Part shown: one piece after another, positions 1,687 to 57,175 of the stretch
Numbering within the stretch: the stretch's first letter is position 1
Layout of the letters: each line of letters opens with the position of its first letter
DNA from: Escherichia coli
GTDB lineage: Bacteria > Pseudomonadota > Gammaproteobacteria > Enterobacterales > Enterobacteriaceae
Reading direction: 5' to 3' (one strand)
Assembly: GCF_003991155.1 (NCBI RefSeq)
Contig: NZ_CP031293.1
DNA length: 64,000 nt
The notes under the pieces: generated by a model
What the model was told of the DNA's origin: nothing
Databases searched by the model: none
Seen by the model: only the letters and a program-made list of their open reading frames with translations
Program-made: the position numbers and the translations under genes

Positions 1687-1762
1687 TGGTGCCCGGACTC
1701 GGAATCGAACCAAGGACACGGGGATTTTCAATCCCCTGCTCTACCGACTGAGCTATCCGGGC
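1687..1762 (-). tRNA. pheV: tRNA-Phe
   Basis: Reverse complement reads GCCCGGATAGCTCAGTCGGTAGAGCAGGGGATTGAAAATCCCCGTGTCCTTGGTTCGATTCCGAGTCCGGGCACCA, 76 nt with GAA anticodon and encoded CCA. Confidence 0.95.
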
Positions 1763-10353: not shown

Positions 10354-10436
10354 GCCTGATGTGCTACGCTTATCAGGCCTATAAAGATGCACGATCGAGT
10401 AGGCTGGATAAGGCGTTTACGCCGCATCCGGCATGG
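10354..10436. repeat. REP/BIME cluster (repetitive extragenic palindromes)
   Basis: 'gcctgatgtgctacgcttatcaggcctat' and 'gtaggctggataaggcgtttacgccgcatccggc' are canonical REP palindromes. Confidence 0.8.
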
Positions 10437-12562: not shown

Positions 12563-13570
12563 GTGAAAAAGCAATGGATTGTTGGTACGGCGCTGCTTAT
12601 GTTGATGACTGGTAATGTCCGGGCAGATGGTGAACCGCCAACTGAAAATATCTTAAAAGATCAATTCAAAAAGCAGTATCACGGCATTCTCAAGCTTGAT
12701 GCCATCACCTTAAAAAATCTTGATGCTAAGGGTAATCAGGCCACCTGGTCAGCGGAAGGCGATGTCTCTTCCAGTGACGATCTCTATACCTGGGTCGGTC
12801 AGTTGGCAGATTACGAGCTGCTCGAACAGACCTGGACGAAAGATAAACCGGTGAAATTCTCGGCGATGTTAACCAGTAAAGGAACGCCCGCGTCTGGCTG
12901 GTCGGTGAACTTTTACTCTTTTCAGGCGGCAGCCAGCGATCGTGGGCGGGTGGTTGACGATATCAAAACCAATAATAAATATCTGATCGTGAATAGCGAA
13001 GATTTCAATTATCGCTTTAGTCAGCTTGAGTCTGCATTGAATAACCAGAATAACTCGATTCCTGCACTGAAAAAGGATGTAAAAGCGCTTGATAAGCAAA
13101 TGGTGGCGGCGCAGAAAGCAGCGGATGCATATTGGGGAAAAGATGCAAACGGTAAGCAAATGACCCGCGAAGACGCCTTTAAAAAAATTCACCAACAGCG
13201 TGATGATTTTAATAAACAGAACGATAGCGAGGCGTTCGCGGTTAAATATGACAAAGAGGTTTATCAACCGGCGATTGCGGCATGTCATAAACAGAGTGAA
13301 GAGTGTTATGAAGTGCCGATTCAGCAGAAGCGAGATTTCGATATCAACGAACAACGGCGACAGACTTTTCTGCAATCACAAAAACTTAGCCGTAAATTGC
13401 AGGATGACTGGATAACGCTCGAGAAAGGGCAATATCCGTTAACGATGAAAGTTTCAGAAATAAACAGTAAAAAAGTCGCGATTTTGATGAAAATTGACGA
13501 TATCAACCAGGCTAATGAACGCTGGAAAAAAGATACCGAACAACTGCGGCGCAATGGGGTGATTAAGTAA
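12563..13570 (+). CDS. yggM: DUF1202 protein YggM (secreted)
   Basis: 335-aa ORF with signal peptide 'MKKQWIVGTALLMLMTGNVRA'. Confidence 0.82.
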   Translation: MKKQWIVGTALLMLMTGNVRADGEPPTENILKDQFKKQYHGILKLDAITLKNLDAKGNQATWSAEGDVSSSDDLYTWVGQLADYELLEQTWTKDKPVKFSAMLTSKGTPASGWSVNFYSFQAAASDRGRVVDDIKTNNKYLIVNSEDFNYRFSQLESALNNQNNSIPALKKDVKALDKQMVAAQKAADAYWGKDANGKQMTREDAFKKIHQQRDDFNKQNDSEAFAVKYDKEVYQPAIAACHKQSEECYEVPIQQKRDFDINEQRRQTFLQSQKLSRKLQDDWITLEKGQYPLTMKVSEINSKKVAILMKIDDINQANERWKKDTEQLRRNGVIK

Positions 13571-17969: not shown

Positions 17970-18068
17970 GCCCGATGCGCAAGCTTATCGGGCCTACAAG
18001 GGAAGCGTAACTTTGAATTCGCACTCACTGTAGGTTGGATAAGGCGTTTACGCCGCATCCAACATGAA
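17970..18068. repeat. REP/BIME cluster
   Basis: 'gcgcaagcttatcgggcctacaag' and 'gtaggttggataaggcgtttacgccgcatccaac'. Confidence 0.8.
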
Positions 18069-30076: not shown

Positions 30077-30113
<37 letters not shown>

Positions 30114-33198: not shown

Positions 33199-33229
33199 TC
33201 AGATTGTTGGCAAAGTGCGCGTTGTTTAT

Positions 33230-33266
33230 GCCGGATGCGGCGTGAACGCCTTATCCGTCCTACAAG
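33230..33266. repeat. REP element (left partner of the BIME that carries the IS insertion)
   Basis: 'gccggatgcggcgtgaacgccttatccgtcctacaag'. Confidence 0.8.
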
Positions 33267-33297
33267 ATTTTGCAAATTCAACATATTGCAGGAAGTA

Positions 33298-33357
<60 letters not shown>

Positions 33358-33386
33358 GCCAGACACAGCGCCGTCAGGCGCTGTTG

Positions 33387-34606
<1,220 letters not shown>

Positions 34607-56174: not shown

Positions 56175-56320
56175 CCTCACCGAAGCGAGGGCTTGAAGGA
56201 GAAGGGTTATGATGCGACTTGTCATCATACTGATTGTACTGTTACTCATAAGTTTCCCAGCTTATTAACAGTCAGTCTCAGGGGAGGAGTCATCCTCCCT
56301 TACCCTTACTCACTAAATTA
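56175..56320 (-). ncRNA. sibC: SibC antisense RNA (antitoxin of ibsC); approximate boundaries
   Basis: Inferred from the ibsC toxin ORF on the opposite strand and the flanking hairpins 'aagccctcaccgaagcgagggctt' and 'gggaggagtcatcctccc'; ends not determined. Confidence 0.4.
56209..56268 (+). CDS. ibsC: Type I toxin IbsC (19-aa hydrophobic peptide)
   Basis: Manual translation after SD 'aggaga': MMRLVIILIVLLLISFPAY*; lies in the serA-fau intergenic region where the K-12 ibsC/sibC locus sits. Confidence 0.75.
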   Translation: MMRLVIILIVLLLISFPAY

Positions 56321-56368
56321 GGTTAAAGAATCAACGATGTCAATCAGGGCGATGCAGGTGTGTCGCCC

Positions 56369-56989: not shown

Positions 56990-57175
56990 AGGGAATCTCC
57001 GAGATGCCGCCGCAGGCTGTAACCCTTGAACCCTTGGTTCAAGGTGAATGTGTCGTCGCAGTTTTAAGGCTTCTCGGACGGACCGAGCATGCTCACCAAC
57101 CGCGGAGCGCCACATTCTTGTGGTATGAAATATCGGCTCAGGGGACTGGCCCGCTTGCGAACATCTCAGAGAAAT
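56990..57175 (-). ncRNA. ssrS: 6S RNA
   Basis: Minus strand reads ATTTCTCTGAGATGTTCGCAAGCGGGCCAGTCCCCTGAGCCGATATTTCATACCACAAGAATGTGGCGCTCCGCGG...GGCGGCATCTCGGAGATTCCCT, the canonical 6S RNA. Confidence 0.93.

What the first reader, a model, noticed from the sequence alone, without database searches (positions are those of the whole stretch)
17986..17996. Unoccupied candidate IS621 target sites in other REPs of the window
The REP between yggR and ruvX contains ATCGGGCCTAC (17986-17996, plus strand), an exact match to the target-like guide string in the leader plus the AC right arm. The REP between yggL and yggN has ATCAGGCCTAT (10372-10382), a 10/11 match to the occupied target. These are likely secondary insertion hotspots and would be natural empty-site controls.
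Basis: inference. Interest (0 to 1): 0.4.

Follow-up and report, generated by a model that had tools for sequence, protein, structure and literature searches.

The report
Empty IS621 landing sites in REPs
Two short repeats in this E. coli region look like landing sites for the RNA-guided jumping gene IS621 that sits nearby; one is a real, repeatedly used site, the other is almost never used, and all of this follows from published knowledge.

Summary
The sequences are real. ATCGGGCCTAC lies at 17987-17997 (+), one base off the stated coordinates, in the REP between yggR and ruvX. ATCAGGCCTAT lies at 10372-10382 (+), in the REP between yggL and yggN. The window holds an intact 1279-bp IS621 (33301-34579, minus strand) inserted at ATCAGGCCT|AC. 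Its bridge RNA carries the published guides ATCGGGCCU and GUAG.

The yggR-ruvX prediction is confirmed. 171 of 5,426 complete E. coli genomes have an IS621-family element in that REP, against 8 for the site occupied in the window. All seven junctions I read are at exactly the predicted phosphodiester. They carry four IS variants on several flank alleles, so there were probably at least four separate insertions. The window is the exact empty allele of strain CUVET20-416.

The yggL-yggN site is occupied in 0 of 5,426 genomes, although about 511 carry the identical empty 60-mer. It appears once in the natural-target list of Durrant et al. 2024, so it is a rare target, not a hotspot.

The speB-loiP REP (ATCCGACCTAC, 30101-30111) or a neighbouring REP of that spacer is occupied in 8 genomes.

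REP targeting by IS621, the guide rule and both 50-mers are already published. This is a correct but ordinary finding.

The parts
17987..17997 (+). Empty IS621 target ATCGGGCCTAC. Left target 17987-17993, CT core 17994-17995, right target AC 17996-17997. Predicted insertion point between 17995 and 17996.
   Evidence: the only 0-mismatch site in the window. Filled in 171 genomes. Junctions ...ATCGGGCCT|IS621|ACAAGGG... in L001 are identical to the window flanks. Listed as Durrant seq145.
17970..17997 (+). Short (Z2-like) REP that holds the target. The target forms its 3' stem arm plus the CTAC tail.
   Evidence: Compare the published REP query GCCTGATGCGCTACGCTTATCAGGCCTACG.
18030..18065 (-). 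Inverted Y-type partner REP of the same BIME. Its 11-mer is ATCCAACCTAC (18040-18030), three departures from the guide. Not used.
   Evidence: Junction query found 0 of 5,426 genomes.
10372..10382 (+). Weak candidate target ATCAGGCCTAT. A at position 4 and T at position 11 would both give rG:dT pairs with the guides.
   Evidence: 0 of 5,426 genomes filled. About 511 genomes have the identical empty 60-mer. One natural-target entry, seq457.
10354..10382 (+). Z2-type REP between yggL and yggN that holds the weak target.
   Evidence: The BL21(DE3) allele reads ATCAGGCCTGG here.
10399..10432 (-). Inverted Y-type partner REP. Its 11-mer is ATCCAGCCTAC. Not used.
   Evidence: Junction query found 0 of 5,426 genomes.
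33301..34579 (-). Resident IS621, 1279 bp counting one copy of the CT core. Its left end faces higher coordinates.
   Evidence: sequence; 100% identical copies annotated 'IS110-like element IS621 family transposase', and the family is present in 2,244 of 5,426 genomes.
33407..34387 (-). Recombinase ORF, 326 aa. D11, E60, D102, D105 and S241 are present.
   Evidence: PF01548 + PF02371; three substitutions (D220N, R238L, Y239H) against WP_000399648.1.
34388..34565 (-). Bridge RNA region. Left target guide AUCGGGCCU at 34516-34508, right target guide GUAG at 34488-34485, preceded by UGC. Donor guides are unchanged.
   Evidence: alignment to the published 177-nt bridge RNA taken. Guide positions follow Hiraizumi et al..
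34580..34606 (-). Left half of the occupied REP, ending ...ATCAGGCCT (34588-34580). The right half of the target (AC) is at 33300-33299.
   Evidence: The same junction is found in 8 of 5,426 genomes. Listed as Durrant seq224.
33230..33263 (+). Y-type partner REP of the occupied BIME. Its 11-mer is ATCCGTCCTAC. Not used.
   Evidence: Junction query found 0 of 5,426 genomes.
30078..30111 (+). Y-type REP between speB and loiP.
   Evidence: 8 genomes hold an element in this spacer. The one junction read at this REP, LD91-1 (L015), has a canonical IS621 at ATCCGACCT|AC. The one two-piece hit read, A7 (L016), is in a third REP that the window lacks.

Best explanation
The two 11-mers are the 3' arm and tail of ordinary E. 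coli REP elements. REPs of this class are what IS621 has evolved to recognise.

Mechanism (from the published work): IS621 excises as a circle. Its left-end transcript, the bridge RNA, pairs its left target guide AUCGGGCCU with the bottom strand of target positions 1-9. [quoted passage not shown] The DEDD/Ser recombinase then exchanges strands at the CT core, so the element lands between T9 and A10 with CT on both sides.

The yggR-ruvX REP (17987-17997) pairs at all 11 positions. It is a real, repeatedly used landing site that happens to be empty in this strain.

The yggL-yggN REP (10372-10382) would need two rG:dT pairs, at positions 4 and 11. The second of these falls in the 4-bp right guide. 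It is at best a rare target.

Shown here: the sequences, the intact guides, the exact natural junctions and their frequencies. Taken from the literature: the pairing and strand-exchange chemistry. Inferred: that the resident copy is active, and that the wobble at position 11 is what weakens site 2.
For: - The resident element is intact and its guides are identical to the published bridge RNA.
- Durrant et al. 2024: the target-binding loop specifies ATCGGGCCTAC. In BL21(DE3), 129 insertion sites were ATCAGGCCTAC and 2 were ATCGGGCCTAC, together 96.21% of insertions. Position 4 is tolerated as rG:dT. Hiraizumi et al.: left guide A50-U58 pairs with the bottom strand, right guide G77-G80 pairs with top-strand C11-C8, and there is a G53:dT pair.
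- Site 1 is filled in 171 of 5,426 genomes.
- Seven junctions were read. All lie at ...CCT|TGTAT...ACAGTATCT|A.., with elements of 1279-1280 bp.
- Those seven carry four IS variants that differ by 24-35 nt, on several flank alleles. This implies at least four insertion events.
- BL21(DE3) carries ATCGGGCCTAC at this REP.
- The exact window 50-mers of site 1, site 2 and the occupied site are seq145, seq457 and seq224 in Durrant's Supplementary Data 2.
- Site 2: 0 of 5,426 genomes filled, against about 511 identical empty alleles. In Durrant's list only 11 of 834 natural targets read ATCAGGCCTAT, against 596 ATCAGGCCTAC and 26 ATCGGGCCTAC.
Against: - Complementarity alone does not order the sites. 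ATCCGACCTAC (30101-30111) has a true mismatch at position 4 plus a wobble at position 6, yet its spacer is filled in 8 genomes. The double-wobble site 2 is filled in none.
- The canonical ATCAGGCCTAC site occupied in the window is filled in only 8 genomes.
- Genome counts are confounded by shared ancestry and by which lineages carry IS621. Most of the 171 carry the HS-like flank allele. Only two of the 30 rows listed have the window-like allele.
- T at position 11 flanks 3 of the 7 filled site-1 alleles, so T11 is not prohibitive by itself.
- Activity of the resident copy was not tested. It has three substitutions, including two next to S241.
Confidence: 0.88

Rival explanations
1. Both sites are equally good secondary hotspots. 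The absence of insertions at yggL-yggN only reflects sampling or lineage effects: strains with the TAT allele may rarely carry active IS621.
For: Site 2 is in Durrant's natural-target list (seq457). T at position 11 flanks 3 of 7 filled yggR-ruvX sites. Both departures from the guide are G:T-compatible. Genome counts are not phylogenetically independent.
Against: 0 of 5,426 genomes filled against about 511 identical and 1,057 similar empty alleles. Only 11 of 834 natural targets read ATCAGGCCTAT. Durrant's screen reports low tolerance for single mismatches and lower tolerance for double mismatches.
Confidence: 0.07
2. The resemblance is incidental. These are just REP/BIME elements with their own roles, and this strain's IS621 copy is inactive, so neither site is a live target here.
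For: The 11-mers are REP consensus sequence. The window copy has R238L and Y239H next to the catalytic S241, and D220N. Only one copy lies in the 64 kb.
Against: 100% identical copies occur in 5-10 places per genome in at least 37 genomes, which implies recent transposition of this variant. The catalytic residues and all four guides are intact. The same REP is filled in 171 genomes by several variants, including ones that share this copy's loop sequence (L003, L017).
Confidence: 0.05

Closest known systems
Natural and experimental IS621 target sites in E. coli REPs (Choi, Ohta & Ohtsubo 2003, cited; Durrant et al. 2024, PMC11208160)
   Same: The element, the guides (ATCGGGCCU/GUAG), the CT core, the REP context and the insertion point are all the same. 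The window's three 50-mers are literally entries seq145, seq457 and seq224 of the published natural-target list. ATCGGGCCTAC is named there as the sequence the loop encodes, and it was hit in BL21(DE3).
   Different: Nothing in kind. What this analysis adds is per-locus occupancy in 5,426 complete genomes (171 / 0 / 8 / 8 / 0 / 0 / 0 for the seven REP arms of the window) and evidence for at least four independent insertions at yggR-ruvX.
REP/BIME elements of E. coli (Y, Z1 and Z2 types)
   Same: Extragenic position, imperfect palindrome with a conserved ...CTTATC(N)GGCCTAC tail, and head-to-head pairs with a spacer. Close to the three REP sequences quoted by Durrant et al..
   Different: The yggR-ruvX copy is a variant: C for T in the stem, a compensating G for A, and a 1-nt shorter loop. 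That G is what makes it a perfect match to the guide instead of the usual G:T match.
Other REP-targeting IS110-family elements (ISPpu9/ISPpu10 of Pseudomonas putida; sibling IS621-family elements with loops ATCCGGCCTAC or ATCCGACCTAC)
   Same: RNA-guided insertion into REPs. The sibling loop classes in Durrant's data match the Y-type REPs that are also present in this window.
   Different: The guides and the REP families differ. The elements found at the window's loci all carry the ATCGGGCCU loop.

Membership tests
IS621 bridge-RNA target site | Positions 1-9 match the left target guide and positions 8-11 match the right target guide of the resident bridge RNA | tested here: met
   Site 1 matches 11/11 by Watson-Crick pairing. 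Site 2 matches 9/11 plus two G:T-compatible positions, 4 and 11.
IS621 bridge-RNA target site | CT core dinucleotide at positions 8-9 | tested here: met
   17994-17995 and 10379-10380 are both CT.
IS621 bridge-RNA target site | Natural insertions at exactly this phosphodiester, with CT on both sides (yggR-ruvX site) | tested here: met
   171 of 5,426 genomes. Seven junctions were read. Listed as Durrant seq144/145/148/150/153.
IS621 bridge-RNA target site | Natural insertions at exactly this phosphodiester (yggL-yggN site) | tested here: inconclusive
   0 of 5,426 complete genomes, but one entry (seq457) in the published natural-target list. The metagenome scan was uninformative.
IS621 bridge-RNA target site | Recombination with the cognate donor in an assay | not testable with these tools
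   Published only for the 11-mers ATCAGGCCTAC and ATCGGGCCTAC in BL21(DE3). The per-site table (Supplementary Table 3) is truncated in the held copy.
IS621 (IS110 family) element, resident copy | DEDD RuvC-like domain plus a Tnp domain with catalytic Ser. Left end encodes a bridge RNA with target and donor loops. 1279 bp, no inverted repeats, CT core at both ends. | tested here: met
   PF01548 + PF02371. D11, E60, D102, D105 and S241 present, and guides identical to the published bridge RNA. Ends TGTAT.../...ACAGTATCT. RefSeq names identical copies IS621.
REP/BIME | Extragenic imperfect palindrome of about 28-35 nt with a conserved tail, often in inverted pairs | tested here: met
   Similar to the published REP sequences. 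There are seven REP arms in four intergenic spacers of the window.

The most novel reading that the evidence does not exclude
Landing-site use in nature is not set by the 11-nt guide match alone.

Within one 25-kb stretch:
- The perfect-match REP is filled in 171 genomes, by probably at least four independent insertions.
- The canonical ATCAGGCCTAC REP is filled in 8.
- A spacer whose REP carries a true mismatch plus a wobble (ATCCGACCTAC) is filled in 8.
- A double-wobble REP is filled in none.

This would mean that local context adds a second layer to bridge-RNA targeting. Candidates are REP/BIME architecture, flanking bases, transcription, or selection on the neighbouring genes.
Probability: 0.3. 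Interest if true: 0.3.

Novelty: already known. Interest (0 to 1): 0.15.

Why it matters
It matters little beyond annotation. The analysis confirms, on 5,426 genomes, that the published guide rule predicts a real and repeatedly used IS621 landing site. It also gives a clean pair for assays: the window is the empty allele and CUVET20-416 is the filled one. The only mildly useful extra is the per-locus occupancy table. It shows that guide match alone does not rank the sites, which bears on off-target prediction for bridge recombinases. Shared ancestry among genomes limits what can be concluded from it.

Tried and rejected
- Metagenome scans. The site-2 right junction (ACAGTATCTAYAAAGATGCACG) gave 0 hits. 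The positive-control scan for the site-1 right junction gave 9 hits, all chance matches with no IS621 upstream. That collection cannot test either site.
- Experimental per-site insertion table for BL21(DE3). Supplementary Table 3 of Durrant et al. is truncated in the held copy, and no coordinates or gene names could be found. I could only show that BL21(DE3) has ATCGGGCCTAC at yggR-ruvX.
- Choi et al. 2003 (PMC166490) is not held.
- Rfam has no bridge-RNA family. There are only sub-threshold REP-derived sRNA matches next to the element.
- The non-REP 10/11 match ATCGGGCCTGC at 38365-38375 (-), inside a coding region, was considered. It is absent from Durrant's lists and was not pursued.
- The Y-type REP arms at 18030-18040 (-), 10399-10409 (-) and 33253-33263 (+) were tested as targets. 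Each gave 0 genomes. In one search, 15 records hit the piece limit, so that zero is slightly less secure.

Full report
**Observation**

The window is E. coli chromosome, running mutY-trmB-yggL-yggN ... yggR-ruvX ... metK-speA-speB-loiP-tktA.

- ATCGGGCCTAC occurs once, at 17987-17997 (+).
- ATCAGGCCTAT is at 10372-10382 (+), as stated.
- Each 11-mer is the 3' stem arm plus the CTAC/CTAT tail of a short REP (17970-17997 and 10354-10382). Each REP sits head-to-head with a Y-type REP on the other strand (18030-18065 and 10399-10432).
- An exact 11-mer is expected about 0.03 times in the window by arithmetic. The matches exist because these are REP family members, not by coincidence.

**The resident element**

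- A 1279-bp IS621 lies at 33301-34579 on the minus strand.
- Read on that strand, the junctions are ...GCTTATCAGGCCT|TGTATTATCC... and ...ACAGTATCT|ACATACTTCC... The occupied target is therefore ATCAGGCCTAC, inside a Z2-type REP whose Y-type partner is at 33230-33263.
- The ORF 33407-34387 encodes 326 aa, has the IS110 DEDD and Tnp domains, and keeps D11, E60, D102, D105 and S241.
- The left end aligns to the published 177-nt bridge RNA (sequence) with five differences. None of them falls in the left target guide AUCGGGCCU (34516-34508), the right target guide GUAG (34488-34485), the preceding UGC, or the donor guides.
- Identical copies are annotated as IS621 in RefSeq. The family is in 2,244 of 5,426 complete genomes, at 13,172 places.

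**What is already published**

- Durrant et al. 2024 state that the loop encodes ATCGGGCCTAC and that the common natural target is ATCAGGCCTAC.
- In BL21(DE3), 129 insertion sites had ATCAGGCCTAC and two had ATCGGGCCTAC, together 96.21% of insertions. 144 of the 173 sites were in REPs. The position-4 difference forms an rG:dT pair.
- Hiraizumi et al. give the pairing. Left guide A50-U58 pairs with the bottom strand. Right guide G77-G80 pairs with top-strand positions 11-8. G53 pairs with dT. A T at position 11 would therefore face G77 as another G:T pair (inference).
- Their Supplementary Data 2 lists 834 unique natural targets for this loop: 596 ATCAGGCCTAC, 26 ATCGGGCCTAC, 11 ATCAGGCCTAT and 3 ATCGGGCCTAT.
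- The list contains the window's own 50-mers verbatim. seq145 equals 17972-18021, seq457 equals 10356-10405, and seq224 is the reconstructed occupied site.
- These entries are flanks of real elements joined at the core (methods).

**Population test**

For each REP arm of the window I joined 200 bp of unique flank, ending at the CT core, to the first 200 bp of the IS621 left end. I then counted the complete E. coli genomes (of 5,426) in which one place covers at least 80% of that chimera.

| REP arm | 11-mer | Window coordinates | Genomes filled |
|---|---|---|---|
| yggR-ruvX | ATCGGGCCTAC | 17987-17997 (+) | 171 |
| yggL-yggN | ATCAGGCCTAT | 10372-10382 (+) | 0 |
| occupied site | ATCAGGCCTAC | 34588-34580 / 33300-33299 (-) | 8 |
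| speB-loiP | ATCCGACCTAC | 30101-30111 (+) | 8 |
| Y-type arm | ATCCAACCTAC | 18030-18040 (-) | 0 |
| Y-type arm | ATCCAGCCTAC | 10399-10409 (-) | 0 |
| Y-type arm | ATCCGTCCTAC | 33253-33263 (+) | 0 |

Empty-allele denominators, from 60-mers at 80% coverage or more:
- Site 1: 870 window-like genomes plus 2,552 HS/BL21-like genomes.
- Site 2: 1,057 genomes, of which 511 are at 99% identity or more.

**Junctions at yggR-ruvX**

I read seven filled loci.

- In every one, a 1279-1280-bp element sits exactly between the CT and the next base of this REP.
- In CUVET20-416 (L001), the 60 nt to the left and the 70 nt to the right are identical to the window. The window is therefore its precise empty allele.
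- The seven elements fall into four sequence variants that differ by 24-35 nt: canonical in L001, L002 (E. coli HS), L018 and L020, and one each in L003, L017 and L019.
- They sit on different flank alleles, with flanking 11-mers ATCGGGCCTAC, ATCGAGCCTAC, ATAGGGCCTAT and ATCGGGCCTAT.
- The simplest reading is at least four independent insertions, that is, a true recurrent landing site. Gene conversion between IS copies is the alternative and was not excluded.
- Strain RMDEC465 has both this site and the window's occupied site filled, on opposite strands about 17.5 kb apart.
- BL21(DE3) carries ATCGGGCCTAC at this REP (NZ_CP053602.1 2,926,219-2,926,229). At yggL-yggN it carries ATCAGGCCTGG.

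**The yggL-yggN site**

No complete genome has an element there, despite hundreds of identical empty alleles. If site 1's overall occupancy applied (about 171 of 3,590), some 25 filled copies would be expected among the 511. That comparison ignores shared ancestry, so it is only indicative. Together with its 1.3% share of natural targets and its single published entry, the site is best described as a rare, weak target and not a hotspot.

The Y-type REP between speB and loiP departs from the guide at position 4 (C, a true mismatch) and position 6 (A, G:T-compatible). Even so, strain LD91-1 has a canonical IS621 with the ATCGGGCCU guide inserted at ATCCGACCT|AC. The eight hits split into four single-piece and four two-piece matches. 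The one two-piece hit I read, A7 (L016), has the element in a third REP of that spacer (ATCTGACCT|AC), which the window's allele lacks. Guide match therefore does not fully rank the sites. The numbers are small, and lineage effects were not controlled.

**Mechanism and verdict**

The sites are REPs first, and IS621 exploits them. [quoted passage not shown] That would place the element co-directional with yggR, between the two REPs of the BIME, as seen in L001.

Its prediction is confirmed for one site, not for the other, and is incomplete. None of it is new: REP targeting has been known since 2003, the guide rule since 2024, and both loci are already in a published list.

**Dead ends**

- Two metagenome scans were uninformative.
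- The experimental per-site table was not available.
- Choi et al. 2003 is not held.
- Rfam has no bridge-RNA model.

Noticed in passing
window 30078-30111 (+); L015, L016: The speB-loiP Y-type REP (ATCCGACCTAC) is a natural IS621 landing site despite a true mismatch at position 4. The spacer has one REP in the window but three REPs in strains LD91-1 and A7, a REP copy-number polymorphism.
   Followed up: yes
window 33407-34387 (-) and 34388-34565 (-): The resident IS621 is a variant. The recombinase has D220N, R238L and Y239H (the last two next to the catalytic S241). The bridge RNA has changes in the non-guide part of the target loop (G59A, C64U, one inserted C, U84C). 100% identical copies sit in 5-10 places per genome in dozens of genomes, so the variant looks active.
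   Followed up: partly
L003 / NZ_CM177019.1 (strain RMDEC465): This genome has both the yggR-ruvX site and the window's occupied site filled, in inverted orientation about 17.5 kb apart, among roughly 26-31 IS621 left ends. This arrangement could allow inversion of the ruvX-tktA segment by homologous recombination.
   Followed up: no
Durrant et al. Supplementary Data 2: Sibling IS621-family elements exist with target loops ATCCGGCCTAC (245 natural targets) and ATCCGACCTAC. They match Y-type REPs, and the window's 30101-30111 equals the second loop exactly. None of the elements I read at the window's loci carried these loops.
   Followed up: partly
window 33224-33307: Sub-threshold Rfam matches to REP-derived sRNAs on the BIME that IS621 splits: ES036/CssrF at 33264-33307 (+), 35.5 bits against a gathering score of 37.6, and naRNA4 at 33224-33260 (-). 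The insertion point at 33300/33301 lies inside the ES036-like stretch.
   Followed up: no
window 38365-38375 (-): ATCGGGCCTGC is a 10/11 match to the guide with an intact CT core, inside the coding region 37816-39093 and not in a REP. It is absent from Durrant's natural-target lists.
   Followed up: partly
L017-L020 (filled yggR-ruvX sites): The 11-mers flanking resident elements at the same REP differ between strains: ATCGAGCCTAC, ATAGGGCCTAT and ATCGGGCCTAT. Either the targets were imperfect at insertion or they mutated afterwards. T at position 11 occurs in 3 of the 7.
   Followed up: partly
window 56992-57175 (-), 56193-56343 (-), 1690-1762 (-): Ordinary RNA genes found by the Rfam scan: 6S RNA (ssrS), a Sib antitoxin RNA and a tRNA.
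   Followed up: no
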